A DNA stretch of 64,000 nt from an uncultured Chloroflexia bacterium (GCA_963770795.1 CAVYQR010000002.1:56943-120942); one strand, 5' to 3'. Shown: positions 26,941-43,506, counted from the stretch's first letter. The notes: generated by a model from the sequence alone, not told the origin. Program-made: numbers and translations.

Positions 26941-29106
26941 TCAGGGCTCCAGCAGCCCGAGCCAGTCGCCGAACTCCTCGACGTGCGTCATCCGGCCGAG
27001 CTTCTGGTACTCGCGCTCGGTGCCGCGCACGAGATCCAGCATCGTGACGGGCCGGTCTTCGGCGATCGCGTAGAAGGCGGCGGCGACGCAGATGTTCCGG
27101 ATGTTGCCGCCGGACAGCTTGAACGCGGTCGCCAGGAACTCGAGGTCAACCTCGTCGGCGCGCGGCACGGCGGGCGGCAGGTGGAGGTCCCACAGCCGCA
27201 GCCGGTCGGCCTCCTCCGGCAGGGCGAAGTCCACGATCACGTCGAGCCGGCGCAGGAACGCCTCGTCGAGGTTCGCACGCAGGTTGGTGGTCAGAACGGC
27301 CAGACCGTCGAAGCGCTCCATCCGCTGGAGCAGGTAGGCGATCTCGACGTTCGCGTAGCGGTCTCGAGCGTCCTTCACCTCGGACCGCTTGCCGAAGATG
27401 GCGTCGGCCTCGTCGAACAGCAGGACGCCGTTCACGCGGTCGGCCTCGTTGAAGATCCGGTCGAGGTTCTTCTCTGTCTCGCCGATGTACTTGTCCACCA
27501 CTGTGGCGAGGTCGATCAGGTAGAGGTCAAGCCCGAGATCGGCGGCGACGACCTCCGCGGACAGCGTCTTGCCGGTGCCGCTATCGCCGGCGAACAGGGC
27601 CGTGACGCCCGTGCCCCGAGCCGAGCCACCGCCCATCCCCCACTCTCTGACCCGCTCCCGGTGCCTCGCGCGGCTGGTCAGCTCGCGCAGCGGCCCGATC
27701 GTCTCGGCCGGCAGCACCAGGTCATCCCAGCCAGCCTGGGCCTCGATCCGGCGCGCCAGCCGTTCCAACCCGCCGGCGTTCTGGGCTCGCGCGCCCGCCC
27801 GCAGGTCCTCGGGCTCGATGGACCGCGCCTCCGCCACGGCGCGGCGCTTCGCCGCCACGGCCGCCCGCCGGACCTGGATCGGATCGAGCCGGAACCCGGC
27901 AGTCAGGCCTGCGGGATCCAGGGAGTCGACGACGCCGGCCGCGGCCCCGTCGTATTCGTCGTCGCCGCCGCCGGCCGCCAGAGCCGCGTGCCAGGTGGCG
28001 CGCCGGGCGTCAACCGCGTACAGCGGCGCGTCCAGGATCACGGGCACCTCCCGCGACCAGGCCGGGTCCCAGCCCCGGAGGCCGAGCAGCACGACCGGGC
28101 AACGGGCTTCGGCGAAGGCACGGATCGCCGCGGGGCCGCGCTCAGCCAGCACCTCGATGGGCCCGGCCACGATCGCCGCGCCGCGAAGGACTGCCTCGCG
28201 GACACAGGCGGCGCCAAGCTCGACGGCATCGTCGCCGGCCGTGATCCGCGAGAGGTCCACCGGCAGGACGCCGAGACCCGCGGAACCGACGGCGGCCGTC
28301 GCCCAGGAACGGCCCGCCGTGCCTGCGCGGTCGCGGACGTATGCCAACCGCGTGCCGGACCGCAGCGCCGTCGTCAGCGTGGGTCCGCCGATGGCATCGG
28401 GCGAGGGCTCCGGGTCGCTCGCAGACATGAGCGCCTCGACGCGGGGCTCCGGCCGGTCGTCACCGAGCAGGTGCGCGGTGACCCGGTCCGGGACCCGGAG
28501 AGCCCTGGTGAGGAACGGGCGATCGGGATCGTCGATGAGGATCAACCCACCGCTGACCAGGTGCGAGGTCGGGGCAAGCCGGTGCCGCTCGGTGCGCAGA
28601 CCATCCCCGCCCCGCGTCAGCTCCAGGGCCAGACCGGCACTCGCCCGCCGGCGCGAGACATCGTCGTGGAGGTAGGCATACAGGCGCTCGAACCGGGGAT
28701 CCAGGTCGGGCGCCAGGGCGACGAGCAGGACCTCCAGGTCCATCTCGTCGAGCTCGAAAGCGCCGGCCAGTCGCCTGAGGCGCAGGTCGGCGCCGGCGGC
28801 CTCCGCAGCATCGGCCCGTGCCTCGACCCTGGCGATCGCTGCGTCCAGGCCCGGGCCCGTCCCGGGTTCGATCCGGGGTGGCTGGTCGAACAGGGCATCC
28901 ACCTGGGCCTCGGTGATGTACAGGCCCCGGAACCGGTCGCCCGGGTCCGGATCAGTCGCGCGCCGGCGGTCCACGGCGGCGCGGACGCGCGCCTCGACCA
29001 CGACCAGGCGCCCGAAGAGGTAGACCAGCGACGGGTCCGGGCGACCGGCATCCGCGGGCGCGGCGGGCGCTGAGTCCGGCTCCTCCCGGGACGCGCGGGT
29101 GGTCAT
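26941..29106 (-). CDS. eCIS AAA+ ATPase (Afp15/Pvc15-like)
   Basis: Walker A (GDSGTGKTLSAEV), Walker B (LLFDEADAIF), and a second-region DKYIGETEKNL; 721 aa with an N-terminal extension as in Afp15. Confidence 0.85.
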   Translation of the reverse strand: MTTRASREEPDSAPAAPADAGRPDPSLVYLFGRLVVVEARVRAAVDRRRATDPDPGDRFRGLYITEAQVDALFDQPPRIEPGTGPGLDAAIARVEARADAAEAAGADLRLRRLAGAFELDEMDLEVLLVALAPDLDPRFERLYAYLHDDVSRRRASAGLALELTRGGDGLRTERHRLAPTSHLVSGGLILIDDPDRPFLTRALRVPDRVTAHLLGDDRPEPRVEALMSASDPEPSPDAIGGPTLTTALRSGTRLAYVRDRAGTAGRSWATAAVGSAGLGVLPVDLSRITAGDDAVELGAACVREAVLRGAAIVAGPIEVLAERGPAAIRAFAEARCPVVLLGLRGWDPAWSREVPVILDAPLYAVDARRATWHAALAAGGGDDEYDGAAAGVVDSLDPAGLTAGFRLDPIQVRRAAVAAKRRAVAEARSIEPEDLRAGARAQNAGGLERLARRIEAQAGWDDLVLPAETIGPLRELTSRARHRERVREWGMGGGSARGTGVTALFAGDSGTGKTLSAEVVAADLGLDLYLIDLATVVDKYIGETEKNLDRIFNEADRVNGVLLFDEADAIFGKRSEVKDARDRYANVEIAYLLQRMERFDGLAVLTTNLRANLDEAFLRRLDVIVDFALPEEADRLRLWDLHLPPAVPRADEVDLEFLATAFKLSGGNIRNICVAAAFYAIAEDRPVTMLDLVRGTEREYQKLGRMTHVEEFGDWLGLLEP

Positions 29107-29109: not shown

Positions 29110-29994
29110 TCAGGGTCGCGGGACGCCGCGGACGCGCACGACCCGGCCACTACCCAGGCCGGCGAGCTCGGCCGAGACTTCGTCCTCGACGGCTCCCGGG
29201 GCGGTGCCCGTTGCGGCGCTCGCGGCGGCGCCCTCGCCCTTCCTGCGGTCCGCTCCCCTTCCCTTCCTGGTCTCGTGCGTGCCGGTCGACACGGCCGCCA
29301 CCCCCGTCGATCCTGCGCGGACCAGCTCGGATTGGAGCGCGTCGTCGCCGGGACCGAGCACGCGGCTCGCCGCGCGGCCGCGACGCGCACCGCCACGGAG
29401 GCGCCGTTCTGCATCGATCCCGGGGCCACCGAACCCGAGGGTCGGTCCCTCCATCACCGGGGCCGCGACCGGCCACGACCAGGAGGCGTCCAGGGTGCTG
29501 TCGCGACGAGGTCGAGCGACGGCTTCAGCTCCCCGCCCATCGCCGACCACACGTCGGCGATCGAGCGGTCGGGTCCGACCGGCAGGCCGACGCTCAGGAT
29601 GATCGGGTACGGACGACGACGCCAGCGAGCCGGAGAGGAGCTCCGCCGGGATCGTCTCGTTCCGGACGAACGTGGCGAGGCAGGCTGAGAGCAGGCGGTG
29701 CTCGTCCTCGGGGCGCTGCGTCCACGCGGTGACGAGGTAGGAGAGGCGGAACCGCCGCGGGGGCATGCGTCGCTCGCCGGCGACGCGCGACGCCTCGTCG
29801 CGCATCAGCTGGGGCACGATCTGGCGCCGCGAGGTGTCCTCGCGGATGTCGTACAGGTAGATGTCGACCGTCGGGGCGTTGCGGCGCGCAACCCATTCCC
29901 TGGTGGGCGCGTCGAACAGGACTTCCACGCGCGACCCGTTGAGCGCATCGCGGCGGACGAGAGCCTCGATCGCCTCGTCGACCTCCTGGATCAT
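29110..29994 (-). CDS. DUF4255 (Afp16/Pvc16-like tail terminator/cap) protein
   Basis: MIQEVDEAIEALVRRDALNGSRVEVLFDAPTREW...DIYLYDIRED matches the DUF4255 N-terminus; start at ATG 29994; C-terminal third is low-complexity. Confidence 0.7.
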   Translation of the reverse strand: MIQEVDEAIEALVRRDALNGSRVEVLFDAPTREWVARRNAPTVDIYLYDIREDTSRRQIVPQLMRDEASRVAGERRMPPRRFRLSYLVTAWTQRPEDEHRLLSACLATFVRNETIPAELLSGSLASSSVPDHPERRPAGRTRPLDRRRVVGDGRGAEAVARPRRDSTLDASWSWPVAAPVMEGPTLGFGGPGIDAERRLRGGARRGRAASRVLGPGDDALQSELVRAGSTGVAAVSTGTHETRKGRGADRRKGEGAAASAATGTAPGAVEDEVSAELAGLGSGRVVRVRGVPRP

Positions 29995-31694: not shown

Positions 31695-31706
31695 GGAGCC
31701 GCCTGA

Positions 31707-32165
31707 ATGCCTTTCGGACTGCCGAGCCTGCCCAACGACGCGATCGCGTCGTACCACTTCTCCGTCGAGGTCGACAGCCTGGAGATCGCCCAGTTCTCGG
31801 AGCTCTCCGGGATCACGAGCGAGATCGACGTCATCGAGCTCAAGGAGAACATGCGCGACGGGAAGCCGGTCATCAAGAAGCTCCCGGGCGCGCGCAAGCC
31901 GCCGACCATCACCCTCAAGCGCGCGAAGAGCGCATCGATGGACCTTTGGAACTGGCACGCCGCGATGCGCGACGGCGACGTCGCCGGCGCCCGCAAGAAC
32001 GGCTCCGTCGTCCTCTACGACTACACCTTCGGGGAAGTGGCCCGCTACAACTTCCTCAACGGATGGGTGTCCAAGATCACGATGGGTGCGGCCAAGGCCG
32101 GGGCCAACGAGGTCCTGACCGAGGAGGTGACAATCGTGTGCGAAGAGCTCGTCCGGGTGAAGTGA
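31707..32165 (+). CDS. tail tube protein (T4 gp19 / Afp1-like)
   Basis: 152 aa; YHFSVEVDSLEIAQFSELSGITSEIDVIELKEN...KKLPGARKPPTITLKRA pattern. Confidence 0.85.
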   Translation: MPFGLPSLPNDAIASYHFSVEVDSLEIAQFSELSGITSEIDVIELKENMRDGKPVIKKLPGARKPPTITLKRAKSASMDLWNWHAAMRDGDVAGARKNGSVVLYDYTFGEVARYNFLNGWVSKITMGAAKAGANEVLTEEVTIVCEELVRVK

Positions 32166-32166
32166 C

Positions 32167-32589
32167 GTGATGGCCGGCGCCGAGGCTCCTGCCGCCCGGG
32201 TCGGGCGGCAGGATCCCGCGCTGCGGACGGAATTCCCGTTCGTCCTGCCGCGCGGTTACGTCGACGATGCGGGGGTTGTTCACCGCGACGGCGTCATGCG
32301 CCTGGCAACGGCGCGCGACGAGATCCTCCCCCAGCGCGACCCGCGCGTTCGCGAGAACGAGGCCTACCTGACGGTCCTCCTGCTGGCCCGGGTCGTGATG
32401 CGGATCGGCACGGTGTCACCGGTCACGACCGGGACGATCGAGGGCCTGTTCGCGTCCGATCTCGCGTTCCTCCAGGACCTCTACCGGCGGGTGAACGCCG
32501 AGGGCCACAGCCAGGCCGCCGTGACCTGCCCGGCGTGCAAGCACGAGTTCATGGTGGACCTGGCGGGTGATTCCCCGGGGGAATCGTGA
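32167..32589 (+). CDS. tail-assembly-chaperone-like protein (G-like ORF)
   Basis: 140 aa with good GC3, positioned between the tube and tape-measure-like genes; ends 10 nt after a CCCGGGG heptamer. Confidence 0.55.
   Translation: MMAGAEAPAARVGRQDPALRTEFPFVLPRGYVDDAGVVHRDGVMRLATARDEILPQRDPRVRENEAYLTVLLLARVVMRIGTVSPVTTGTIEGLFASDLAFLQDLYRRVNAEGHSQAAVTCPACKHEFMVDLAGDSPGES
32574..32580 (+). promoter_or_regulatory. candidate -1 programmed ribosomal frameshift site CCCGGGG (XXXYYYZ)
   Basis: Heptamer in the X_XXY_YYZ phase of the upstream ORF. The -1 frame opens at 32571 (after a TGA at 32568) and continues to 32741. Confidence 0.45.
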
Positions 32590-32741
32590 CGTACCCGACC
32601 GATCGCCTCTTCGAGGAGGTCGCGTACGTCGCCTACCACCTTCACTGGTCGTTCGAAGAGCTCCTCGACCTGGAGCATCCGGTCCGACGCCGGTTCGTCG
32701 AGGAGATCGACCGGTTGAACCGGCGTTCCGAGGAGGGTTAG
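32586..32741 (+). CDS. GT-like extension ORF (52 aa, -1 frame, overlaps the upstream stop as GTGA)
   Basis: VTYPTDRLFEEVAYVAYHLHWSFEELLDLEHPVRRRFVEEIDRLNRRSEEG; high GC3; not in the ORF track because it is short. Confidence 0.5.
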   Translation: MTYPTDRLFEEVAYVAYHLHWSFEELLDLEHPVRRRFVEEIDRLNRRSEEG

Positions 32742-34830: not shown

Positions 34831-34875
34831 GATGGGCAACACGCTGGTGCCCGGCGCGTGCGAGGGGACAGCCAG

Positions 34876-35304
34876 ATGACCGACACGGCGCTTGGCCTGC
34901 GCTTCCACGTCACGATCGACGGCAAGGACAGCCTCGGCGACTGGACGAAATGCGAGGGCCTGACCGTCGAGTACGACGTGTACGAGTACAAGGAGGGCGG
35001 GCTGAACGCGTACGTCCATCGCCTGCCGGGCCGGGCCAAGTACCAGAACCTCAAGCTCACACGGCCGGTGACCAAGGCCACCGCCGACGTCCTGGCGTGG
35101 TTGTCGAAGGTGAAGCCCGATGTGGAGCGGACGACTGCCAAGGTTGCCGTGCTCGACGAGGCCGGCACCGAGATCGCCGCCTGGACCTTCTACCAGGTCT
35201 ATCCGCTGCGTTGGACGGGGCCCACGCTCGACGTCGGCCAGAACCAGGTCGCCACCGAGACGCTCGAGCTGTGTCACGCGGGCTTCCTGAGCATGGCCGG
35301 GTGA
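34876..35304 (+). CDS. second tube-like protein (gp19 family / Afp5-like)
   Basis: LRFHVTIDGKDSLGDWTKCEGLTVEYDVYEYKEGGLNAYVHRLPGRAKYQNLKLTRP is the tube-family signature. Confidence 0.8.
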   Translation: MTDTALGLRFHVTIDGKDSLGDWTKCEGLTVEYDVYEYKEGGLNAYVHRLPGRAKYQNLKLTRPVTKATADVLAWLSKVKPDVERTTAKVAVLDEAGTEIAAWTFYQVYPLRWTGPTLDVGQNQVATETLELCHAGFLSMAG

Positions 35305-35308
35305 CGCG

Positions 35309-35998: not shown

Positions 35999-37711
35999 AT
36001 GGCCACGTTCGCGCAGCAGACCACGGTCGAGATCGACGGCACGCCACTCGACGCGGCCCTGGAGCCGCTCGTGGAGCAAGTGGTCGTGGAGGACTACCTC
36101 CACCAGCCGGACATGGTCACCATCACGTTCCGGGACATCGAGCGCACGGTCGTGGCGGACGCCCGCATCCGGATCGGGTCGAAGCTCAAGGTCTCCGCGA
36201 GCTCGGTCGGCGGCCAGGCGCCCGAGGTGCTGGCGCTGGTGGAGGTCACCGCGCTGGAAGCCGAATACACGGCCGCGGGCTCGCGCGCGGTCGTCCGAGC
36301 CTACGACCCTTCGCACCGTTTCCATCGCGGCCGTCGGACGCAGACGTACGTGGGCATGAAGGACTCCGACATCGCCCGCGAGGTCGCCCAGCGAATCGGG
36401 GTCGAGGTGGGCACCGTGGAGGACTCCGGCCCGGTGCTGCCCCACGTGTCCCAGGCCAACGAGACCGATTGGGCATTCCTCGAGCGCCGGGGCCGCGAGA
36501 TCGGGTTCGAGGTCGCCGTCAACGAAGGGAAGTTCTCGTTCCGCAAACCGACCGATGCGGCCGCAGCACCCGGTGACGGCGACTACGACTCGACCGATCC
36601 GCTGAAGCTCGTGTTCGGGCAGGACCTCCTCGAGTTCCACCCGCGCATCAGCTCGGCCGAGCAGGTCGGCGAGGTGATCGTCAGAGGCTGGGACATGAAT
36701 GGGAAGCAGGCCGTGGTCGGTCGGTCTCCGGCCTCCGCCGCCTCGGCCACATTGAGCACCGGCCCGGCCCAGCTCGCGAAGACGTTCGGCGATCCGACGT
36801 ATACGTGCGTCGATCGCCCCGTCGCAACGCAGGCCGGCGTGGACGCCACCGCCAGGGCCCTGTCGGAGCGGATCGGCAGCGCGTTCGCCGAGGCGACGGG
36901 TGTGGCCCGCGGCAACCCGAAGCTGAAGGCCGGAACGGCGGTCAACGTGAGCGTCGTGGCCGACGAGTTCGCCGGCAAGTACGTGATCACGACCTCACGC
37001 CACGTGTTCGATCAGGACGGCTACCGCACGCGGTTCATCGTGTCAGGCCGCCTCGACCGGTCACTGCTCGGGCTGGCGACCGCCGGCGCCGACGGCCGGT
37101 CGCAGGAGTCCCGGATCAACGGGGTGACCGTCGCCCTGGTCACCAACAACACCGATCCGGACGGCCTTGGGCGGGTGAAGCTCACGTTCCCGTGGCTGGG
37201 CGACGGCTACGAGTCGGACTGGGCGCGCCTGGTGCAGCTGGGGGCCGGCCCGGACTCCGGGGCGGTCTGGCTGCCCGAGGTCAGCGACGAGGTGCTCGTC
37301 GCCTTCGAGCAGGGGGACGTGAGCCGGCCGTACGTCGTCGGAGGGCTGTGGAACGGCAGGGACAAGCCGCCCCTGGGTGAAGCACTGACCGACAACGGGA
37401 GGGTGAAGCGCCGCGGCTTCGTGTCCCGGCAAGGCCATCGTGTGGTGCTTCTCGACGGCGATGACGACTCCGGGATCGCCCTGCTCAGCGCCGACTCCAA
37501 GCTGCGGATCTCCCTCAACCAGACGAAGACCGAGATCCATGTGACGTCCGACGGGACGATCGTCATCGAGTCGACCGGCGACCTCAGCCTGAAATCCTCC
37601 GCCAACGTCAGCGTCGAGGCATCGGGGAACCTGACGCTCAAGGGCGGCGGCATGGTCAAGATCCAGGGCGCATCCGTCGACATCGACGGCTCGCCCATCA
37701 CGTTGAACTAG
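35999..37711 (+). CDS. VgrG / phage late-control gene D (gpD) spike-hub protein (Afp8-like)
   Basis: 570 aa; gp27/gp5-like order with the conserved PYVVGGLWNGRDKPP region and a C-terminal beta-helix-like repeat. Confidence 0.85.
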   Translation: MATFAQQTTVEIDGTPLDAALEPLVEQVVVEDYLHQPDMVTITFRDIERTVVADARIRIGSKLKVSASSVGGQAPEVLALVEVTALEAEYTAAGSRAVVRAYDPSHRFHRGRRTQTYVGMKDSDIAREVAQRIGVEVGTVEDSGPVLPHVSQANETDWAFLERRGREIGFEVAVNEGKFSFRKPTDAAAAPGDGDYDSTDPLKLVFGQDLLEFHPRISSAEQVGEVIVRGWDMNGKQAVVGRSPASAASATLSTGPAQLAKTFGDPTYTCVDRPVATQAGVDATARALSERIGSAFAEATGVARGNPKLKAGTAVNVSVVADEFAGKYVITTSRHVFDQDGYRTRFIVSGRLDRSLLGLATAGADGRSQESRINGVTVALVTNNTDPDGLGRVKLTFPWLGDGYESDWARLVQLGAGPDSGAVWLPEVSDEVLVAFEQGDVSRPYVVGGLWNGRDKPPLGEALTDNGRVKRRGFVSRQGHRVVLLDGDDDSGIALLSADSKLRISLNQTKTEIHVTSDGTIVIESTGDLSLKSSANVSVEASGNLTLKGGGMVKIQGASVDIDGSPITLN

Positions 37712-37720
37712 GGGTTTGGG

Positions 37721-38107
37721 ATGGGAGCGCCGGCGATCGTCATGGGCGACAGGATCACGGGGATGTGCGCGATCCACCAGATCCCCAACCCGGCCAGCGG
37801 CGTGCCGCAGCCAGGTCCGCCGATGCCGTTCAGCGCGCCGATCACCATGAGCACCGTCCCGAGCGTGATGATCGGCGGCAAGCCGGCCGCCGTGGCGGGA
37901 AGCCAGGGCCCCAACACGCCGCCGCACGTGGGGCTGCACCCGGCGGACCCGTACCTGGCGCCTCCCATGCAGATCGGCAAGATCGTGTCCGGCAGCGCGA
38001 CGGTGCTCATCGGCGGCCAGCCGGCGGCGTCCGCCTCATCGCCGTGCACCTGCTGCGCGACCCCGGGGACCCTCGTGCCGACCGTCACCACCGTGCTCAT
38101 CGGATAG
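37721..38107 (+). CDS. PAAR-domain spike tip protein
   Basis: 128 aa directly after VgrG; SVMIGGKPAAVAGS and ATVLIGGQPAA PAAR-like motifs. Confidence 0.65.
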   Translation: MGAPAIVMGDRITGMCAIHQIPNPASGVPQPGPPMPFSAPITMSTVPSVMIGGKPAAVAGSQGPNTPPHVGLHPADPYLAPPMQIGKIVSGSATVLIGGQPAASASSPCTCCATPGTLVPTVTTVLIG

Positions 38108-38117
38108 GAGGGGAACC

Positions 38118-38516
38118 GTGAGCCAGGAATTCATCGGGCAGGGTTGGGCCTTCCCGGTCACCACGGACGCGACAGGGGGCATCCGCCTCGTGTCCCGGGA
38201 GGCCGAGATCGAGCAGAGCATCCGCCTGATTCTCTCAACGGCGCCCGGGGAGCGCCCGATGCGGCCCGAGTTCGGGTGCGCCATCCATGACTACGTGTTC
38301 GATCCGGCGGACGGCCGCACCGCGGCCCGGATGTCGTTCGCTGTTCGCGAGGCGCTTCGTCGCTGGGAGCCGCGGATCGACGTCATCGACGTGCGTGTCG
38401 ACCGTCACCCGGACGCGGACGACGCGCTCCTGCTGGACATCCGCTACACGACGTCCGACACCAACGACCCGCGCAATCTCGTGTTCCCGTTCTACGTCAT
38501 CCCCGGCGAAGGCTGA
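38118..38516 (+). CDS. baseplate wedge protein gp25/GPW family (Afp9-like)
   Basis: GQGWAFPVTTDATGGIRLVSREAEIEQSIRLILSTAPGERPMRPEFGCAIHDYVFDP is the GPW/gp25 signature; GTG start with a GGAGGGGAA RBS. Confidence 0.85.
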   Translation: MSQEFIGQGWAFPVTTDATGGIRLVSREAEIEQSIRLILSTAPGERPMRPEFGCAIHDYVFDPADGRTAARMSFAVREALRRWEPRIDVIDVRVDRHPDADDALLLDIRYTTSDTNDPRNLVFPFYVIPGEG

Positions 38517-38548
38517 GCCTCGACCACCAACCCAGGAGCGCAGCCCTG

Positions 38549-40501
38549 ATGGTGTTGCCCGTCCCGAACCTCGACGACAGGCGCTTCCAGGATCTCGTCG
38601 ACGACGCCAAGCGCCTCATTGCGCGCCGCTCGCCGGAGTGGACTGACCACAACGTATCCGACCCGGGCGTGACGCTCATCGAGCTGTTCGCATGGATGAC
38701 GGACCAGCTCATCTACCGGCTCAACCGGGTCCCGGACCGGCAGTACGTCGCCTTCCTCGACCTCCTCGGGGTCAAGCTGTTTCCGCCCACCGCGGCGCGG
38801 ACGAGCGTCACCTTCTGGCTCTCCGCCCCCCAGGCGGATACGGTCAAGATTGCGCTGGGCACCCAGATCGCCACGGTCCGGACGGAGACCGAGGAAGCGA
38901 TCGTGTTCGAGACAGTCGACGAGCTGGCGATCGTTCGGGCGTCGCTGCTGAGAGTCGGCTCTCAGATCGACGGCCGCACGATGCGTGATCACGGCGAGGC
39001 ACTCCAGAAGCGAACTCGCTTCTACTGTTTCGACGAGGTGCCGAAGCCAGGCGATGCGCTCTACATCGGGCTCACAGAGGCAGTTCCGTCGTGCGCCGTC
39101 ACCCTGCGGTTCACCTGCGACATCGAGGGCGTCGGGGTGGATCCGGAGCGCCCACCCCTCGCGTGGGAGGCGTGGGATGGCGACGAATGGGTGGCATGCG
39201 AGTTGGAGCGTGACGAGACCGGCGGCATCAACAGGGACGGCGACGTCGTCATCCACGTGCCGGACAGCCACGTGGCGTCCGTGATCGACAAGCAGCGGGC
39301 AGGATGGCTGCGGGCTCGGGTCATCGAACCAGTGGCAGACCTGCCGCGCTACAGCGCGTCCCCCTCGATCGGCGGCCTCACCGCCTTCGCGATCGGCGGC
39401 AACGTCGACGCGGTGCATGCCGCGCTGATCGACGTTGACGACCTCGGCGTGAGCGAGGGGATCCCGGGACAGAGGTTCGAGCTCCGGAGGCGTCCGATCG
39501 TTCCAGGCGACGCAGACCCGGTGCTCGAAGTGGCCGATGAGGGCGAGGAATGGGTCGAGTGGACCCTCGTCGACGACTTCTCCATGTCCGGGGAGGAGGA
39601 CCTGCACTTCACCATCGACGCCGTCGCGGGACAGCTCGCCCTGGGTCCGGCCGTCCGCCTGGCCGATGGCGCGTTGGTGCGCTACGGGGCGACGCCGCAG
39701 AAGGGCGCCCGGCTTCGCCTACGCGGCTACCGGACGGGTGGCGGCGTGCGCGGGAACGTGGCCGGTCGCGCCATCTCCGTCCTTCGGTCGTCCATCCCGT
39801 ACGTGGCACGGGTCGAGAACCGGCGGCCGGCGGTGGGCGGCGTTGACGGAGAGGACCTGGAGAACGCCAAGGTCCGGGGACCGATGCTGCTCCGGACCCG
39901 CGGCCGAGCGGTGACGACCGATGACTTCGAGCACCTGGCACGGAGCGCGGCACCCGAGGTCGCCCGAGTGAAAGCGGTGACCGCGGGCGAAGGAAGCGAT
40001 CCGGGGTCGGTCCGGGTCCTGGTTGTGCCCGCCGCAGCGCCGAGTGGGGGCATGCGCCTGCAGTTCGCGCAGCTGGCTCCGTCGGAGGCAACGCTCCAGC
40101 GGATCACGGACCGCCTCGAGGAGACACGGGTGATCGGGACGCGGGTCGTCATCGAGCCCCCCGTCTACCGCGGCGTCACCGTCGTGGCGCGCGTACGGGC
40201 GCGGCCCCGCGCCAAGCCCACCCGCCTCCAGGCAGACGCGCTCGACACCCTGTACGCGTACCTGGACCCGATCAGCGGTGGACCGGACGGGACGGGGTGG
40301 CCGTTCGGACGCCCGGTCACCGCCGGTGAGCTGAACGCCGTGCTCCAGCGCCTGGGCGGCGCCGAGCTGGTCGAAGACCTCCGGATCTTCGGCGCGGACC
40401 CGGTCACCGGCCAGCGCGGCCAGCAGACCGCGCGCCTGGAGCTCGAACCCACCGCTCTGGTCTTCAGCTACGAGCACCAGGTCCTGGTGGAGGGATCCTG
40501 A
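38549..40501 (+). CDS. baseplate J / gp6-like protein (Afp11-like)
   Basis: N-terminus NLDDRRFQDLVDDAKRLIARRSPEWTDHNVSDPGVTLIELFAWMTDQLIYRLNRVPD matches the Baseplate_J family; 650 aa. Confidence 0.85.
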   Translation: MVLPVPNLDDRRFQDLVDDAKRLIARRSPEWTDHNVSDPGVTLIELFAWMTDQLIYRLNRVPDRQYVAFLDLLGVKLFPPTAARTSVTFWLSAPQADTVKIALGTQIATVRTETEEAIVFETVDELAIVRASLLRVGSQIDGRTMRDHGEALQKRTRFYCFDEVPKPGDALYIGLTEAVPSCAVTLRFTCDIEGVGVDPERPPLAWEAWDGDEWVACELERDETGGINRDGDVVIHVPDSHVASVIDKQRAGWLRARVIEPVADLPRYSASPSIGGLTAFAIGGNVDAVHAALIDVDDLGVSEGIPGQRFELRRRPIVPGDADPVLEVADEGEEWVEWTLVDDFSMSGEEDLHFTIDAVAGQLALGPAVRLADGALVRYGATPQKGARLRLRGYRTGGGVRGNVAGRAISVLRSSIPYVARVENRRPAVGGVDGEDLENAKVRGPMLLRTRGRAVTTDDFEHLARSAAPEVARVKAVTAGEGSDPGSVRVLVVPAAAPSGGMRLQFAQLAPSEATLQRITDRLEETRVIGTRVVIEPPVYRGVTVVARVRARPRAKPTRLQADALDTLYAYLDPISGGPDGTGWPFGRPVTAGELNAVLQRLGGAELVEDLRIFGADPVTGQRGQQTARLELEPTALVFSYEHQVLVEGS

Positions 40502-41124
40502 TGCGCGGCCTGGTTGCCGACCTGCCCAACCCGCACCCCCTCGGCCGCCGGCTCCCGGCTGTCTACCAGGAGGAGGATCCGTTCACGATGCGCCTCACCG
40601 AGGCGCTCGACGACGTTCTTGCTCCAATCCTGTGCACGCTCGACAACCTGCCGGCCTACTTCGATCCGCGCCTGACGCCCGACGACTTCCTGGGCTGGTT
40701 GGCCGGCTGGGTCGCGTTCGATCTCGATGAGACCTGGGACGCTTCACGGCGCCGGGCGGCCGTCGTTCAGGCCGTTGATCTCCTCCGTCGCCGGGGAACG
40801 GCCTCGGGGCTCGTGGACGAGATTCGGCTGGTGACGGGGGCAGAGGTTGAAGTCGTGGAGAATGGCGGGACCGCGTGGTCGCTCGACGCGATGAGCCCGA
40901 TAGTGGGCACGCCGGAGCCAACGCTGCTGGTCCGGATCACCGCCGCCGACCCGGCCTCGATCGACGCCGATCACGTTGACCGCGTGGTTGTGGCCGCCAA
41001 GCCTGCCCACGTCCCGCATCGGATCGAGATCGTCAGCGTGTCGCCTGGGCGCAAGTCAAAGCCCAAGGCGACTGAGGGCCAGCCCGCGGGTGGCGACGAG
41101 ATGCCCGCCGGCTCTGGTGGCTGA
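40501..41124 (+). CDS. phage tail protein I-like baseplate protein (P2 gpI / Afp12-like)
   Basis: LPAVYQEEDPFTMRL...LDNLPAYFDPRLTPDDFLGWLAGWVAF matches the P2 gpI family; translationally coupled to the upstream gene. Confidence 0.75.
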   Translation: MRGLVADLPNPHPLGRRLPAVYQEEDPFTMRLTEALDDVLAPILCTLDNLPAYFDPRLTPDDFLGWLAGWVAFDLDETWDASRRRAAVVQAVDLLRRRGTASGLVDEIRLVTGAEVEVVENGGTAWSLDAMSPIVGTPEPTLLVRITAADPASIDADHVDRVVVAAKPAHVPHRIEIVSVSPGRKSKPKATEGQPAGGDEMPAGSGG

Positions 41125-41253
41125 CCTGCTCTTGGGGTTGCTGTGCGCGGGTCAGCCTGACCACGCCCCGCGAGGGCCGCGACTGGAGCCACGAGATGGC
41201 CGGTCCCGCGGCTATGCTGCGGATGTCCACGTGGGCTTCGGGGAGCAGCTCGA

Positions 41254-43506
41254 GTGATTGTCTGCGGCAACTGCGGCGCAAAGAACCAGGAGTCGGACGC
41301 CTTCTGCGGGGAGTGCGGCAAGTTCCTCGAGTGGGTCGGCAAGCGCACGGACGAGGCCCCAGCCCTCCGGGAACCGGAGGTTGCCGCGGCGGCGGCAGAG
41401 GCGCAGCGCAGGCAGGACGAGGTTGCCGCGGCGGCAGCGGCGCAGGCGGCAGCGGCGGCAGAGGCGGCGGCAGAGGCGCAGCGCAGGCAGGACGAGGTTG
41501 CCGCGGCGGCGGCAGAGGCGCAGGCGGCGGCAGAGGCGGCGGCGGCAGAGGCGGCAGAGGCGGCGGCGGCAGAGGCGGCGGCGGCAGAGGCGGCGGCGGC
41601 AGAGGCGGCAGAGGCGGCAGAGGCGGCGGCGGCAGAGGCGGCGGCGGCAGAGGCGGCCGAGGCGGCCGAGGCGCAGCGCAGGCAGGACGAGGTTGCCGCG
41701 GCGGCAGCGGCGCAGCGCAGGCAGGACGAGGTTGCCGCGGCGGCGGCAGAGGCGCAGCGCAGGCAGGACGAGGTTGCCGCGGCGGCGGCAGAGGCGCAGC
41801 GCAGGCAGGACGAGGTTGCCGCGGCGGCGGCAGAGGCGCAGCGCAGGCAGGACGAGGTTGCCGCGGCGGCGGCAGAGGCGGCGGAGGCGCAGCGCAGGCA
41901 GGACGAGGTTGCCGCGGCGGCAGCGGCGCAGGCGGCGGAGGCGCAGCGCAGGCAGGACGAGGTTGCCGCGGCGGCGGCAGAGGCGCAGGCGGCGGAGGCG
42001 CAGCGCAGGCAGGACGAGGTTGCCGCGGCGGCGGCAGAGGCGCAGGCGGCGGCAGAGGCGGCGGCGGCAGAGGCGGCAGAGGCGGCGGCGGCAGAGGCGG
42101 CCGAGGCGGCGGCGGCCGCGGCGGCCGAGGCGCAGCGCAGGCAGGACGAGGTTGCCGCGGCGGCAGCGGCGCAGCGCAGGCAGGACGAGGTTGCCGCGGC
42201 GGCAGCGGCGCAGCGCAGGCAGGACGAGGTTGCCGCGGCGGCAGCGGCGCAGCGCAGGCAGGACGAGGTTGCCGCGGCGGCAGCGGCGGCAGAGGCGGCG
42301 GCGGCTGAGGCGGCCGAGGCGCAGCGCAACGTTCCTCGTGCCCGCCGCGGCGGACCGTCGAGGCCGGCGGCGATCACGATCGCCGCCGCGCCCGCGTCAG
42401 ACGCGACGACGGCCGATGACCAGGAGGCCCCGGCGATCACGCCCTCGATACCACGCCCCGATGACGACGGACCATCGGCTGGTGGGCCTGCCGCCCAGCC
42501 AGAAGCTATCCAGCCGGTCGGGCATCCGCCGGGCGAACCACCCGTCGACGCGCTGCCAGCCGTCCGGCCGACGGCTGTCGCGCCCCGGGCGGCAGCATCA
42601 GGCTCCACCCAGCCACCGGCCCGTACCCCCGTTGCAGAGCCCGACCAGCCTGTCGCACGCCAGCCCACTGCAGATCGGCCGACCGAGGCCAGGCCACGGG
42701 CCGCGGCCACCCCCGAGCGCCGTGTCCCTCGGCCGGGTGATCGGCTCTGCGTGGCTTGCGGCGAGGCAAACGACCCGGCGCGCAAGTTCTGCAGGCGGTG
42801 CGGCGCCGACCTCCTTGAGGCCCGGGTCGTCGCGGCGGCACCACTACCTTGGTGGAAGCGGTTGTTCCGGCGGAAGCCCAAGCAGTACGCAGCCGGCGAA
42901 CGGACGAGAACCATGCAGCCCGGCAAGACCGGGCGAAGGAGCACGGGCATGGGCCGAATCCGGCTGAGGCAGGTGGTCGAGTGGGTCCTGGGTCTCCTCG
43001 TCCTCCTTGGCATCATCGGGTACCTCGCCGTGCCCGGCATGCAGCAGATCATCAACCGGGCCGTGTCAAGCGGGGTCGATTCGATCCAGCGCACGGTGAA
43101 CCCGCGCCTGGAGCCCGTCCGACCGGCCCGGGCCGTGGCGTCGGACGAGATCGAAGACCACCCGGGCGCGAACCTGTTCGACAAGTACGCGAACACGGAC
43201 TGGCGTGCCTCCTCCGCGCAACCCGCCGTTACCGCGACATTCGACGAGACCTTTGATCTCGGCGCGCTGATCGTCTACTCGGGAGCCGCCGAGAACTTCA
43301 CCGAGACCAGGCGACCCGCGAAGATCCAGCTCACATTCCCCGACGGTTCGTCGACTGTGCTTGACCTCAAGGACGACAACGCCAAACAGACGATTACGGT
43401 CGAGAAGTCGGGAATCGACGAGTTCGAGCTGACGATCGTCGAGACCTACGGCCCGGCGGACCGCCCCGTCACGATTTCCGAGATAGAGGTCTTTGCGCGT
43501 CGATAG
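41254..43506 (+). CDS. CisA-like bitopic membrane protein: double zinc-ribbon, Ala/Glu/Gln repeat, TM, discoidin-like C-terminal domain
   Basis: CGNCG...FCGECGKFLEW and CVACG...FCRRCG ribbons; TM (VVEWVLGLLVLLGIIGYLAV); C-terminal domain homologous to 13978..15135; occupies the position where Afp-type loci encode the tail fibre. Confidence 0.7.
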   Translation: MIVCGNCGAKNQESDAFCGECGKFLEWVGKRTDEAPALREPEVAAAAAEAQRRQDEVAAAAAAQAAAAAEAAAEAQRRQDEVAAAAAEAQAAAEAAAAEAAEAAAAEAAAAEAAAAEAAEAAEAAAAEAAAAEAAEAAEAQRRQDEVAAAAAAQRRQDEVAAAAAEAQRRQDEVAAAAAEAQRRQDEVAAAAAEAQRRQDEVAAAAAEAAEAQRRQDEVAAAAAAQAAEAQRRQDEVAAAAAEAQAAEAQRRQDEVAAAAAEAQAAAEAAAAEAAEAAAAEAAEAAAAAAAEAQRRQDEVAAAAAAQRRQDEVAAAAAAQRRQDEVAAAAAAQRRQDEVAAAAAAAEAAAAEAAEAQRNVPRARRGGPSRPAAITIAAAPASDATTADDQEAPAITPSIPRPDDDGPSAGGPAAQPEAIQPVGHPPGEPPVDALPAVRPTAVAPRAAASGSTQPPARTPVAEPDQPVARQPTADRPTEARPRAAATPERRVPRPGDRLCVACGEANDPARKFCRRCGADLLEARVVAAAPLPWWKRLFRRKPKQYAAGERTRTMQPGKTGRRSTGMGRIRLRQVVEWVLGLLVLLGIIGYLAVPGMQQIINRAVSSGVDSIQRTVNPRLEPVRPARAVASDEIEDHPGANLFDKYANTDWRASSAQPAVTATFDETFDLGALIVYSGAAENFTETRRPAKIQLTFPDGSSTVLDLKDDNAKQTITVEKSGIDEFELTIVETYGPADRPVTISEIEVFARR
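41401..42330 (+). repeat. about 930 bp of 42-bp tandem repeats encoding EAQRRQDEVAAAAA and EAAAA variants
   Basis: gcgcagcgcaggcaggacgaggttgccgcggcggcggcagag repeated more than 15 times with Ala-run spacers. Confidence 0.9.

What the first reader, a model, noticed from the sequence alone, without database searches (positions are those of the whole stretch)
26941..43506. Phage-tail-like contractile injection system (eCIS / Streptomyces-type CIS) with a P2-like gene order and no tail fibre
Recognised directly from the translated sequences:
- sheath (MPSYLSPGVYVEEV...) and tube (gp19-like)
- a second tube-like protein and a LysM tube-initiator-like protein
- a 570-aa VgrG/gpD spike and PAAR
- gp25/GPW, baseplate J and tail protein I
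- divergently: a DUF4255 (Afp16-like cap) and an AAA+ ATPase (Afp15-like)

There are no capsid, portal, terminase, integrase, holin/lysin or tail-fibre genes. That argues against a prophage and for an eCIS. The missing fibre, plus a bitopic membrane protein in its place, recalls the cytoplasmic CIS of Streptomyces rather than Afp/PVC. The gene content with the chaperone pair and tape-measure-like gene right after the tube is P2-like.
Basis: partly seen in the sequence, partly recalled or inferred. Interest (0 to 1): 0.8.

Follow-up and report, generated by a model that had tools for sequence, protein, structure and literature searches.

The report
Streptomyces-type contractile injection system, Chloroflexota host
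The region is a headless, fibre-less phage-tail-like injection machine of the known Streptomyces "cytoplasmic CIS" kind, complete with its membrane adaptor CisA, but it sits in the chromosome of an uncultured Chloroflexota bacterium, so it is a new member of a known family.

Summary
No capsid, portal, terminase, integrase or lysis family was hit among the ORFs screened across the 64-kb window, and there is no tRNA gene.

The interpretation also holds.
- The sheath, LysM tube initiator, spike, Baseplate_J wedge, Tail_P2_I wedge and cap each find the solved S. coelicolor CIS as their closest structure, by a wide margin. The sheath is 66% identical.
- The 750-aa gene in the tail-fibre position is a homologue of Streptomyces CisA.
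- Gene order matches a Streptomyces cluster gene for gene.

Corrections:
1. The closest loci are all Chloroflexota MAGs, up to about 90% identity, so the host is probably not an actinomycete.
2. The system extends beyond the given coordinates. Leftward to about 19366 lies a variable cargo island: three proteins sharing an N-terminal LQRxAGNxAV motif, one with the eCIS_core domain. Regulators flank the cluster on both sides.
3. The cap gene carries two compensating 1-nt indels. The tape-measure-like gene carries one. These are either assembly errors or real inactivation.
4. "P2-like" applies only to the block from sheath to spike.

Verdict: new member of a known kind, of modest interest.

The parts
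29110..29994 (-). cis16: Afp16/Pvc16-type cap (tube/sheath terminator). The deposited sequence carries a +1 nt indel at about 29612 and a -1 nt indel at about 29493.
   Evidence: Pvc16_N matches positions 1-122/180 at 99.2 bits as deposited. After removing and adding one base it matches 1-177/180 at 133.9 bits. The repaired protein matches S. coelicolor Cis16 (9gts_0A) at E 9.6e-58, including the scrambled segment. The indels were mapped against L001. All relatives have a single ORF.
26941..29106 (-). cis15: AAA+ ATPase (Afp15-like), the presumed cargo-loading and assembly ATPase.
   Evidence: WHD at 102.7 bits and AAA at 81.3 bits. Its start lies 4 nt after the cis16 stop. The role is inferred from Alg15 of AlgoCIS (bioRxiv 10.64898/2026.05.27.728243).
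23553..26939 (-). 1128-aa cargo candidate. It has a low-confidence N-terminus carrying the [10 protein letters not shown] motif, an all-helical body and a hydrophobic hairpin at about aa 448-545. By architecture it is analogous to Sle1.
   Evidence: No Pfam, NCBIfam or PHROG hit. 21 homologues were found; the only ones that carry a name are two from Chloroflexota MAGs, and one homologue is fused to eCIS_core. TM scan. AF2 model with pLDDT 66.8. No informative fold match. Motif.
22555..23463 (-). Small eCIS_core (DUF4157) protein with an HExxH motif, an N-terminal [10 protein letters not shown] motif and four acidic C-terminal repeats. It is Sle2-like. The start is probably at 23406.
   Evidence: eCIS_core at 112.5 bits against a cut-off of 22. 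Sequence, motif. Role by analogy with Sle2 (PMC13277306).
19366..22551 (-). 1061-aa cargo candidate with an N-terminal LQGLAGNEAV motif. It has two modules (about aa 50-650 and 660-1060) that occur separately elsewhere. The start is probably at 22530.
   Evidence: No family hit. There are 219 representatives, and the C-terminal module is embedded in proteins of 1200-3100 aa. Motif.
18497..19324 (+). GerE/LuxR-family regulator. It is conserved beside the cargo island in relatives. The start is probably at about 18677.
   Evidence: GerE at 50 bits. A 215-aa GerE gene sits in the same position in L016, L017, L018 and L020. S. coelicolor sco4263 is the putative eCIS regulator (PMC10020575).
30177..31694 (+). 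cis2: contractile sheath.
   Evidence: Phage_sheath_1 and Phage_sheath_1C. Match to 8bky_A (Streptomyces CIS) at E 3.5e-204 over the full length, with 331 of 499 aligned residues identical. The best phage sheath is only 34% identical.
31707..32165 (+). cis1a: inner tube.
   Evidence: Phage_T4_gp19 at 95.2 bits.
32167..32589 (+). 140-aa tail-assembly-chaperone-like protein with a C-terminal CxxC...CxxC.
   Evidence: PHROG 508 'tail assembly chaperone', E 2.6e-5. Conserved in all relatives and at the same position in Streptomyces L014.
32586..32741 (+). DUF6760 small protein. Its GTG start overlaps the stop of the previous gene (GTGA).
   Evidence: DUF6760 at 50.6 bits. The same gene is called in L014, L015 and L016. 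Junction sequence.
32748..34830 (+). cis14-position tape-measure-like protein. It is 693 aa after removing one base at about 33339. The middle is Pro/Ala-rich and low-complexity; the termini are conserved.
   Evidence: Frame plot and translations. Indel mapped against L001. Relatives have single ORFs of 650-705 aa. The termini match the 1044-aa protein at the same position in a Streptomyces cluster (E 5e-7 and 0.001). No Pfam hit.
34858..35304 (+). cis1b: second tube-like protein (tube-initiator layer).
   Evidence: Phage_T4_gp19 at 109.8 bits. Role taken from the CIS-Sc structure (PMC12237407).
35309..35992 (+). cis7: LysM tube initiator.
   Evidence: CIS_tube at 80.9 bits plus LysM. 9gtp_P at E 2.8e-44; the next best is 8e-10.
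35999..37711 (+). cis8: VgrG-like spike/hub, a single contiguous ORF.
   Evidence: Phage_GPD + Phage_base_V. 9gtr_q at E 3.4e-94; the next best is 2.6e-28.
37721..38107 (+). cis10: PAAR tip.
   Evidence: PAAR_motif at 44.6 bits.
38118..38516 (+). cis9: gp25-like wedge and sheath initiator.
   Evidence: GPW_gp25 at 95 bits.
38549..40501 (+). cis11: Baseplate_J wedge protein, single copy.
   Evidence: Baseplate_J. 9gtp_1K at E 1.1e-225, residues 1-649 of 650.
40501..41124 (+). cis12: Tail_P2_I wedge protein.
   Evidence: Tail_P2_I at 47.5 bits. 9gtp_E at E 5.6e-39.
41254..43506 (+). cisA homologue in the tail-fibre position. Its parts in order: zinc ribbon; a linker of about 330 aa that is Ala/Glu/Gln/Arg-rich (39-nt tandem repeat x22 at 41389-42288); a Pro-rich stretch; a second zinc ribbon; a PLPWW motif; one TM helix; a discoidin-like C-terminal domain.
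   Evidence: Pfam and NCBIfam. TM at aa 569-600. BLASTP against Streptomyces P0067 gives 9e-23 and 4e-8. P0067 lies directly after Tail_P2_I in a Streptomyces CIS cluster. Repeats. Relatives share the architecture.
43550..46684 (-). Large AAA_22 + Trans_reg_C + BTAD (SARP/AfsR-like) regulator. It is syntenic with the CIS in relatives.
   Evidence: Pfam. Homologous ORFs follow the cluster in L001, L005, L007 and L012; blastn also aligns this gene region to L009 and L013.
10351..18483 (-). Conserved five-gene envelope module that may be associated with the CIS. Its genes are: 421 aa with 2 PapD-like domains, a TM helix and a beta domain; a 710-aa PD40 propeller; 385 aa with zinc ribbon x2, TM and discoidin; a 519-aa and a 652-aa secreted or anchored unknown.

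Best explanation
This is a chromosomal subtype IId contractile injection system. It is orthologous to the cytoplasmic CIS of Streptomyces (CIS-Sc), and it is carried by an uncultured, high-GC Chloroflexota bacterium.

Shown by homology:
- One operon (30177-43506, + strand) encodes sheath, tube, chaperone-like protein, DUF6760, a tape-measure-like protein, the two tube-initiator layers (Cis1b, Cis7), the VgrG spike, the PAAR tip, the gp25/J/I wedge and a CisA homologue.
- The divergent operon (29994 down to 19366) encodes the cap, the AAA+ ATPase and three proteins that share an N-terminal LQRxAGNxAV motif. One of these is a small eCIS_core (DUF4157) protein.

Inferred by analogy with CIS-Sc, SLP and AlgoCIS:
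- The particle assembles free in the cytoplasm on the spike and baseplate.
- The ATPase loads the motif-bearing proteins into the tube lumen through their N-terminal loading region. The small DUF4157 protein bridges cargo to the tube initiator.
- There is no fibre. The bitopic CisA protein (N-terminus in the cytoplasm, discoidin-like domain outside) recruits the baseplate, probably through Cis11, to the cell's own membrane and licenses firing. Firing under stress would damage the producer's envelope (regulated cell death) rather than attack a foreign cell.
- The long Ala/Glu-rich repeat linker of this CisA would then act as an extended cytoplasmic tether.

The LuxR-type and SARP-like regulators on either side probably control expression.
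For: - All expected families are present above Pfam cut-offs.
- CIS-Sc chains are the closest solved homologues, far ahead of the next best hit: sheath 3.5e-204 against 1e-122 (haloarchaeal CIS) and about 1e-50 (AlgoCIS, PVC, Afp); Cis11 1e-225 against 4e-6; Cis12 5.6e-39 with no other hit; Cis7 2.8e-44 against 8e-10; VgrG 3.4e-94 against 2.6e-28; Cis16 9.6e-58 with no other hit.
- Gene order is identical to that of Streptomyces locus L014/L015 from DUF6760 to CisA.
- CisA homology, with the published hallmarks: a Cys-rich Zn motif just before the TM, a C-terminal domain of about 150 aa resembling carbohydrate-degrading or sugar-binding domains, and the fibre position (PMC10020575; PMC12237407).
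- Subtype IId traits are present: single afp11, contiguous afp8, PAAR, and no Afp13 (PMC6899500).
- The region between the ATPase and GerE varies between relatives, as expected of a cargo island.
- The shared N-terminal motif is found only in those proteins. This fits the published cargo architecture and the Sle1/Sle2 arrangement.
- Flanks are housekeeping genes, there is no GC island and no tRNA.
- The cluster is syntenic, including PPDK, in Chloroflexota MAGs.
Against: - Localisation, firing and cell-death function are pure inference. Nothing in the sequence distinguishes cytoplasmic from extracellular use.
- The cap and the tape-measure-like genes are frameshifted in the deposited sequence. 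If the frameshifts are real, the machine may not assemble.
- No protein here was shown to be homologous to the Sco4256-58 effectors. The 421-aa protein matches only in architecture and fold, and its module also occurs without a CIS nearby.
- Homology between the 1128-aa protein and Sle1 was not tested.
- The Chloroflexota assignment rests on the MAG labels of the nearest loci and homologues, not on marker genes from this contig.
Confidence: 0.72

Rival explanations
1. The same machine is used as a conventional extracellular eCIS. Particles would be released by lysis and would inject cargo into other organisms. The CisA-like protein would serve some other role, such as surface or receptor binding as a fibre substitute.
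For: - Vladimirov et al. originally read Sco4242 as a putative fibre and detected it in all three particle purifications (PMC10020575).
- Most eCIS act extracellularly.
- In relatives the cargo island carries toxin-like or wall-binding domains: AHH nuclease, Annexin + PG_binding_1, and a faint Peptidase_M15_4 hit. These would suit attack on neighbours.
Against: - CisA was absent from the CIS-Sc cryo-EM particle model and was shown to be membrane-embedded, with the N-terminus in the cytoplasm (PMC12237407).
- The window's homologue keeps the TM helix and the same topology signals.
- No fibre or receptor-binding gene is present.
- The related Chloroflexota (Roseiflexus) CIS were seen only intracellularly (PMC12998442).
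Confidence: 0.15
2. The locus is a recently inactivated (decaying) CIS. The three single-base indels would be real, so no functional cap or length-determining protein is made and the system is non-functional in this strain.
For: - All three frameshifts detected in the window lie inside the cluster.
- None of them lies in a long homopolymer.
- They hit the most conserved segment of Cis16.
- Loss of a self-killing device could plausibly be selected.
Against: - The other cluster ORFs that could be compared with relatives are intact.
- The DNA between the two cis16 indels is 98% identical to L001.
- The nearest relative, L001, has different frameshifts of its own in the ATPase and cis14 genes. Its contig_NNNN naming and megabase contig suggest to me a long-read assembly, so consensus error is a simpler explanation.
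Confidence: 0.2
3. It is a defective P2-like myovirus prophage or an R-type tailocin.
For: The order of the sheath, tube, chaperone, tape-measure-like, LysM and hub genes resembles the P2 late tail block. All components are of phage-tail ancestry.
Against: - No capsid, portal, terminase, integrase, holin or endolysin family was hit among the ORFs screened across the 64-kb window.
- There is no tRNA or att-like context and no GC deviation.
- eCIS-specific genes are present: Pvc16_N cap, Afp15-type AAA+ with WHD, eCIS_core, DUF6760 and CIS_tube.
- The best phage sheath is 34% identical, against 66% for CIS-Sc.
- No fibre is present, which a tailocin would need.
Confidence: 0.02

Closest known systems
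CIS-Sc / SLP, the cytoplasmic subtype IId CIS of Streptomyces coelicolor, S. venezuelae and S. lividans (cis1-16 + cisA; PDB 8BKY, 8BL4, 9GTP, 9GTR, 9GTS)
   Same: - Same component set and the same gene order from DUF6760 to cisA.
- Sheath 66% identical.
- Cis11, Cis12, Cis7, Cis8 and Cis16 are all closest to the CIS-Sc chains.
- A CisA homologue with zinc ribbons, TM helix and C-terminal domain sits in the fibre position.
- The cap and ATPase operon is divergent.
- A small DUF4157 protein and a large helical protein with a membrane hairpin lie upstream in reverse orientation, as with Sle2/Sle1.
- A LuxR-type regulator lies nearby.
   Different: - The host appears to be Chloroflexota.
- PAAR is present. 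It is absent in S. coelicolor but present in S. venezuelae.
- No Sco4256-58 block lies between cap and ATPase.
- The CisA linker is replaced by about 330 aa of Ala/Glu/Gln/Arg repeats, giving 750 aa against 448-468.
- There are no TTA codons, so no bldA-type control.
- The cargo proteins are unrelated in sequence as far as tested.
- There is an extra SARP-like regulator.
Chloroflexota/Deinococcota IId CIS (Roseiflexus castenholzii, Thermogemmatispora; Gaisin et al. 2026, PMC12998442)
   Same: Same phylum, same subtype IId, an intracellular unanchored particle, and synteny with the Streptomyces clusters.
   Different: That lineage is reported to fall outside the Streptomyces cCIS clade and to lack close cisA homologues. 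The window's system has a clear cisA homologue. I could not compare the sequences directly because no Roseiflexus sequences were available to me.
Afp/PVC/AlgoCIS (classical extracellular eCIS)
   Same: The core modules are shared: Afp1/5, 2, 7, 8, 9, 10, 11, 15 and 16 equivalents. The cargo logic is also shared: an N-terminal loading region, optionally followed by DUF4157.
   Different: - Sequence similarity is much lower (sheath about 1e-50, Cis11 about 1e-4).
- There is no Afp13-type fibre.
- There is one sheath gene instead of three.
- A membrane adaptor takes the place of the fibre.
Phage P2 tail module (FI, FII, E/E+E', T, U, X, D)
   Same: The order sheath, tube, chaperone(s), tape-measure-like, LysM protein, hub. 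The second small ORF is in the -1 frame relative to the chaperone-like gene.
   Different: - No head, lysis or integration genes, and no fibre genes H/G.
- The W/J/I genes follow the hub instead of preceding the sheath.
- Cap, AAA+ ATPase, eCIS_core and CisA have no P2 counterpart.

Membership tests
eCIS superfamily (Afp/PVC-like phage-tail-like particles) | Sheath, inner tube, and gp25 + Baseplate_J wedge present in one locus | tested here: met
   Pfam hits above cut-off.
eCIS superfamily (Afp/PVC-like phage-tail-like particles) | eCIS-specific accessory genes: Afp16/Pvc16 cap and Afp15-type AAA+ ATPase | tested here: met
   Pvc16_N and WHD+AAA. The cap ORF needs two single-base corrections to read through its conserved core.
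eCIS superfamily (Afp/PVC-like phage-tail-like particles) | Spike complex: VgrG-like hub/spike, PAAR tip and LysM tube initiator | tested here: met
   Phage_GPD + Phage_base_V, PAAR_motif and CIS_tube + LysM.
eCIS superfamily (Afp/PVC-like phage-tail-like particles) | No capsid, portal, terminase or integrase genes contiguous with the tail genes | tested here: met
   The ORFs selected by third-position GC across the 64-kb window were screened. A few very short candidates were not scanned. No tRNA.
Subtype IId (dbeCIS, Chen et al. 2019) | Single afp11 copy, single contiguous afp8 ORF, PAAR present, Afp13 fibre absent | tested here: met
   One Baseplate_J gene of 650 aa, one 570-aa VgrG, PAAR, and no fibre. 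Criteria from PMC6899500.
Subtype IId (dbeCIS, Chen et al. 2019) | Afp11 phylogeny places the locus in clade IId | not tested
   No tree was built. As a proxy, Cis11 matches the IId representative 9gtp_1K at E 1e-225 over the full length.
Streptomyces-type cytoplasmic CIS (CIS-Sc / cCIS) | Structural proteins orthologous to Cis1-16 of S. coelicolor | tested here: met
   Six proteins have CIS-Sc chains as their best solved hit by large margins. Gene order is identical to that of a Streptomyces cluster.
Streptomyces-type cytoplasmic CIS (CIS-Sc / cCIS) | [quoted passage not shown] | tested here: met
   Architecture. Homology to the positional orthologue in Streptomyces sp. at 9e-23. Topology was not tested.
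Streptomyces-type cytoplasmic CIS (CIS-Sc / cCIS) | Sco4256-58-type effectors: PapD-like N-domain, one TM, variable C-domain | tested here: inconclusive
   The 421-aa protein at 17218-18483 has this architecture and a PapD-like fold. No Sco4256 sequence was available for comparison, and the gene's module also occurs without a CIS within 10 kb.
Streptomyces-type cytoplasmic CIS (CIS-Sc / cCIS) | Sle1/Sle2-type cargo pair: a large helical protein with a TM hairpin plus a small DUF4157 partner, upstream in reverse orientation | tested here: inconclusive
   Arrangement and architecture match (PMC13277306). Sequence homology to Sle1 was not tested, and no tape-measure-like fold was recovered.
Streptomyces-type cytoplasmic CIS (CIS-Sc / cCIS) | Particles stay in the cytoplasm, fire at the cell's own membrane and cause stress-induced cell death | not testable with these tools
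   Needs cryo-ET and genetics.
Streptomyces-type cytoplasmic CIS (CIS-Sc / cCIS) | Host is Streptomyces or another actinomycete. This describes the published distribution and is not a mechanistic requirement. | tested here: not met
   Twelve of the 13 nearest loci are Chloroflexota MAGs, the best at about 90% VgrG identity. The one Actinomycetota MAG is at 38%. The named homologues found for the 1128-aa and 421-aa proteins are from Chloroflexota / Ca. Limnocylindrales MAGs.
Myovirus prophage / R-type tailocin | Head morphogenesis, packaging, lysis cassette, integrase, tail fibres | tested here: not met
   None found. The best phage sheath is 34% identical.
Type VI secretion system | Two-subunit TssB/C sheath, TssJLM membrane complex, ClpV recycling ATPase | tested here: not met
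   There is a single phage-type sheath. No T6SS membrane-complex family appeared among the Pfam hits. The ATPase is of the Afp15 type (WHD + one AAA), not ClpV.

The most novel reading that the evidence does not exclude
CisA-dependent, self-directed CIS firing is not an actinomycete speciality. It would also operate in an abundant uncultured soil and freshwater Chloroflexota lineage (Limnocylindria-like). In that lineage the adaptor has evolved:
- a repeat-encoded cytoplasmic tether of about 330 residues, which I predict to be helical and up to about 50 nm long if fully helical;
- a swappable ectodomain, either discoidin-like or a PD40 propeller as in L009.

The system would load a hypervariable cargo island through a shared N-terminal LQRxAGNxAV signal.
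Probability: 0.3. Interest if true: 0.5.

Novelty: new member of a known kind. Interest (0 to 1): 0.3.

Why it matters
In the papers I read, CisA homologues were searched for only in actinomycete genomes. The one Chloroflexota CIS studied in situ (Roseiflexus) was reported to lack close cisA homologues.

A Chloroflexota locus with a clear cisA homologue and CIS-Sc-like structural genes gives several things:
- It shows that the adaptor travels with the machine across phyla.
- It supplies natural variants, in linker length and in ectodomain, for testing how CisA tethers and triggers the baseplate.
- It offers a simple shared N-terminal motif as a candidate cargo-loading tag.

Otherwise this is a routine, correct annotation of a known system.

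Tried and rejected
- Naive ORF calling is useless at 70% GC. I used third-position GC to pick frames.
- The long ORFs 32567-34369 and 33514-34830 from the mechanical list are not genes as such. The real gene is 32748-34830 with one frame change.
- An exact-sequence look-up of the VgrG found nothing. Look-up of the 1128-aa protein found only short Logan contigs without DNA, so the source record's name stayed unknown.
- The afdb50 fold library was unavailable, so I could not check whether the 421-aa model matches AlphaFold models of Sco4256-58.
- The two large cargo candidates are not paralogues of each other beyond the short motif.
- The 385-aa zinc-ribbon/TM/discoidin protein is not a close CisA paralogue. 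Only the zinc ribbons align by BLASTP.
- I considered a P2 E/E'-type programmed -1 frameshift at the chaperone/DUF6760 junction. A G-run that can be read as a slippery heptamer is conserved. However, so is a GTG start in a GTGA overlap, so translational coupling is the simpler reading.
- bldA/TTA regulation: there are no TTA codons in the 15 cluster and neighbouring genes checked.
- I considered counting the five-gene left module as part of the CIS. I rejected this as unproven because the module occurs without GerE or CIS genes within 10 kb in L019.


Full report
**1. Gene calling**

The window is about 70% GC throughout and has no compositional island. Mechanical ORF lists are therefore dominated by shadow ORFs. 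I chose reading frames by third-position GC and translated them.

**2. The observation**

Minus strand:
- WHD+AAA ATPase, 26941-29106
- Pvc16_N cap, 29110-29994

Plus strand:
- sheath, 30177-31694 (MPSYLSPGVYVEEV...)
- gp19 tube, 31707-32165
- 140-aa protein that weakly hits PHROG 508, 'tail assembly chaperone'
- DUF6760, 32586-32741
- Pro/Ala-rich tape-measure-like gene, 32748-34830
- second gp19 tube, 34858-35304
- CIS_tube+LysM, 35309-35992
- 570-aa Phage_GPD+Phage_base_V spike
- PAAR
- GPW_gp25
- Baseplate_J
- Tail_P2_I
- 750-aa zinc-ribbon membrane protein, 41254-43506

The other GC3-selected ORFs in the 64 kb were screened against Pfam, and several against PHROGs. They are metabolic or transport genes (PEP carboxylase, PPDK, a class II tRNA synthetase, dehydrogenases, transporters), regulators, or unknowns. 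None gave a capsid, portal, terminase, integrase or lysis hit. There is no tRNA gene.

**3. Which contractile system is it?**

I compared the structural proteins with all PDB sequences. In each case the best match is a chain of the Streptomyces CIS structures: 8BKY/8BL4 from Casu et al. 2023 and 9GTP/9GTR/9GTS from Casu et al. 2025 (identified).

| Protein | Best hit (CIS-Sc) | E-value | Next best |
|---|---|---|---|
| Sheath | 8bky_A | 3.5e-204, full length | 1e-122 (haloarchaeal CIS 9EZM); about 1e-50 (AlgoCIS, PVC, Afp) |
| Cis11 | 9gtp_1K | 1.1e-225, residues 1-649 | 4e-6 |
| Cis12 | 9gtp_E | 5.6e-39 | none |
| Cis7 | 9gtp_P | 2.8e-44 | 8e-10 |
| VgrG | 9gtr_q | 3.4e-94 | 2.6e-28 |
| Repaired Cis16 | 9gts_0A | 9.6e-58 | none |

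The sheath has 331 of 499 aligned residues identical to 8bky_A, or 66%. The best phage sheath among 50,697 phage records is 34% identical.

The locus also meets the dbeCIS traits of subtype IId: one afp11, a contiguous afp8, PAAR, and no Afp13 (PMC6899500).

**4. The gene in the fibre position**

The published hallmarks of CisA (SCO4242) are as follows (PMC10020575; PMC12237407):
- it is encoded directly after the baseplate genes;
- it has a largely unstructured cytoplasmic N-terminus;
- it has a Cys-rich Zn-binding stretch of about 50 aa just before a single TM helix;
- it has a conserved extracytoplasmic domain of about 150 aa that resembles carbohydrate-degrading or sugar-binding domains.

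The 750-aa protein has all of these:
- an N-terminal zinc ribbon;
- a long linker;
- a second zinc ribbon;
- a PLPWW motif;
- one TM helix at aa 569-600;
- a C-terminal domain matching NCBIfam NADase_discoid, 58.9 bits against a cut-off of 38.

A database search with its last 271 residues returned 68 homologues. One is a 448-aa Streptomyces protein, P0067. P0067 lies immediately after Tail_P2_I in a Streptomyces CIS cluster. The gene order there is DUF6760, a long tape-measure-like gene, gp19, CIS_tube+LysM, VgrG, PAAR, gp25, Baseplate_J, Tail_P2_I and then this protein, which is the same order as in the window.

Pairwise BLASTP gives 9e-23 over zinc ribbon 2, TM and C-terminal domain, and 4e-8 over the N-terminal zinc ribbon.

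The main difference is the linker. About 330 residues are 54% Ala, 15% Glu, 10% Gln and 9% Arg, with 14 copies of QRRQDEV. They are encoded by a 39-nt tandem repeat of about 22 copies at 41389-42288. Relatives L001, L005 and L013 have linkers of similar length and composition but different repeat sequence.

**5. Host**

A scan of one genome per species with the VgrG returned 13 loci.
- Twelve are labelled Chloroflexota/Chloroflexia/Limnocylindrales MAGs. L001 is the best, at about 90% protein identity.
- One is an Actinomycetota MAG, at only 38%.
- L001 aligns with the window at 84-89% DNA identity from the ATPase through the baseplate genes into cisA, at about 71% through the rest of cisA and the SARP regulator, and at 82% over PPDK.
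- The 1128-aa and 421-aa proteins exist with 100% identity on a 1,336,077-bp NCBI/ENA contig. Their named homologues are from Chloroflexota / Ca. Limnocylindrales MAGs.

So the window is most likely chromosomal DNA of an uncultured high-GC Chloroflexota bacterium.

IId CIS are already known in Chloroflexota (Roseiflexus, Thermogemmatispora). That lineage is reported to lack close cisA homologues (PMC12998442). The published CisA surveys I read covered only actinomycete genomes. A cisA-bearing Chloroflexota locus is therefore a modest extension of what is known.

**6. True extent of the system**

The minus-strand operon does not stop at the ATPase.
- One base after the ATPase stop begins a 1128-aa gene (23553-26939).
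- Next comes a 302-aa eCIS_core/DUF4157 protein with an HExxH motif (22555-23463; 112.5 bits).
- Next comes a 1061-aa gene (19366-22551).

All three carry an LQRxAGNxAV motif within their first 60-70 residues or so. The same motif recurs in the gene that follows the ATPase in L017 and in the eCIS_core proteins of L003 and L005.

In relatives, the stretch between the ATPase and a conserved GerE regulator varies:
- L016 has only a 244-aa eCIS_core protein.
- L017 has a 658-aa protein with a faint Peptidase_M15_4 hit, plus eCIS_core, plus a 270-aa protein.
- L018 has Annexin and PG_binding_1 proteins.
- L020 has a 2831-aa Annexin+AHH protein.

This is the behaviour of a cargo island. It also fits two published models:
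- AlgoCIS cargo consists of a system-specific disordered N-terminal loading sequence, an optional DUF4157 and a variable C-terminal domain, and is loaded through the AAA+ protein Alg15.
- In S. lividans, Sle1 (large, helical, with a TM hairpin) and Sle2 (a small DUF4157 protein that binds the tube initiator) are encoded upstream of the structural genes in reverse orientation.

The 1128-aa protein is all-helical. Its N-terminus is modelled with low confidence, and it has a hydrophobic hairpin at about aa 448-545. No informative sequence or fold match was found. The 1061-aa protein is built of two modules that recur separately, the C-terminal one inside proteins of 1200-3100 aa. The two large proteins are unrelated apart from the motif.

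On the right, a SARP/AfsR-like regulator (43550-46684) has homologous ORFs after the cluster in L001, L005, L007 and L012, and blastn aligns the same gene region to L009 and L013.

**7. Frameshifts**

Relative to L001, cis16 has one extra base at about 29612 and one missing base at about 29493. The ORF stays open, but 39 residues are scrambled. They include DRSIADVWSAMGGELKPSLDLV, which is conserved in S. coelicolor Cis16. Repairing the two positions lifts the Pvc16_N match from 1-122/180 (99.2 bits) to 1-177/180 (133.9 bits).

The tape-measure-like gene has one extra base at about 33339. In relatives L002, L003, L005 and L013 it is a single ORF of 650-705 aa. Its N- and C-terminal motifs match the 1044-aa protein at the same position in Streptomyces.

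A tblastn screen with relatives' ORFs flagged only cis16 as frameshifted. The cis14 shift, found separately, was the only other one I detected between about 4.8 and 48 kb. L001 has different frameshifts of its own. Its contig naming and size suggest to me a long-read assembly, which would make consensus error likely, but none of the three sites is in a long homopolymer. I cannot decide between error and real inactivation without the reads.

**8. The left-hand module**

Genes 10351-18483 encode:
- a PD40 propeller protein;
- a 385-aa protein with two zinc ribbons, a TM helix and a discoidin domain;
- two unknown envelope proteins.

The 421-aa architecture equals the published description of Sco4256, but I had no Sco4256 sequence to test. 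The module sits beside GerE and eCIS_core genes in L016, L017 and L018, and beside GerE and an Annexin+AHH protein in L020. It also occurs without either within 10 kb in L019. I therefore list it as only possibly associated.

**9. Mechanism**

Homology shows a complete CIS-Sc-type particle plus a CisA homologue.

The following steps are inferred:
- assembly in the cytoplasm;
- ATPase-dependent loading of the motif-bearing proteins;
- CisA-mediated recruitment of the baseplate to the producer's own membrane, with firing under stress.

Rivals are conventional extracellular use, a decayed locus, and a prophage or tailocin. The last is effectively excluded.

**10. Verdict**

The finding is correct and well interpreted. 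It is a new member of a known kind. Points of modest interest are cisA outside the Actinomycetota, the repeat-encoded linker, a candidate cargo tag, and possible inactivating indels.

Noticed in passing
window 29493 and 29612 (cis16); 33339 (cis14): Three single-base indels relative to the closest relative. Two compensate each other inside the cap gene and scramble its most conserved 39 residues. One splits the tape-measure-like gene. No other frameshift was detected between about 4.8 and 48 kb.
   Followed up: partly
window 41389-42288: A 39-nt tandem repeat of about 22 copies inside cisA. It encodes a linker of about 330 aa that is 54% Ala, with 14 copies of QRRQDEV. Relatives have linkers of the same kind with different repeat units, which suggests rapid repeat turnover under a length or composition constraint.
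   Followed up: partly
window 26774, 23265, 22380 (minus strand); L017 5424; L003 626; L005 802: An LQRxAGNxAV motif lies near the N-terminus of all three proteins downstream of the ATPase. It also occurs in the equivalent or eCIS_core proteins of relatives. It is a candidate cargo-loading signature.
   Followed up: partly
window 22555-22800 (minus strand, C-terminus of the eCIS_core protein): Four tandem copies of A-Q-A-D-F-V-Q-R followed by runs of 6-9 Glu/Asp. The small DUF4157 protein has no other C-terminal domain.
   Followed up: no
window 32570-32592: The chaperone-like gene ends ...TCC CCG GGG GAA TCG TGA. The DUF6760 ORF starts at the overlapping GTG in the -1 frame. CCCGGGG fits the X XXY YYZ slippery pattern, and a run of 5-7 G is conserved at this spot in seven related loci. 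A P2 E/E'-type frameshift fusion is possible, but GTGA coupling is simpler.
   Followed up: partly
window 13978-15135 (minus strand): A second, shorter protein (385 aa) with the CisA-like layout: zinc ribbon, linker, zinc ribbon, TM, discoidin domain. Only the zinc ribbons align with the 750-aa protein by BLASTP.
   Followed up: partly
L009 18449-20131; L007 about 18260-19700: In L007, the SARP regulator follows directly after cis12 and the fibre position holds no CisA gene. In L009, a protein beyond the regulator has the same zinc ribbon, linker, zinc ribbon, TM front end fused to a PD40 beta-propeller instead of a discoidin domain. L007 has a PD40 ORF at the corresponding position. This may be an alternative adaptor.
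   Followed up: no
[not shown]
   Followed up: partly
window 19366-22551, residues about 660-1060: The C-terminal module of the 1061-aa protein recurs inside much larger proteins (1200-3100 aa) in metagenomes. This resembles the modularity of polymorphic toxins.
   Followed up: no
L001 about 876-1000 (ATPase C-terminus) and 7944-8539 (cis14): The closest relative has its own frameshifts in different CIS genes. Together with its contig naming and megabase contig, this makes me suspect long-read consensus errors in this set of MAGs.
   Followed up: no
window 10351-18483 versus L016-L020: The five-gene envelope module is followed by ADH and PEP carboxylase in L016, L018 and L019, as in the window. 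In L017 and L020 a PAS-domain gene follows instead. The CIS, cargo island and GerE block appears as an insertion next to this module in some genomes but not in L019.
   Followed up: partly
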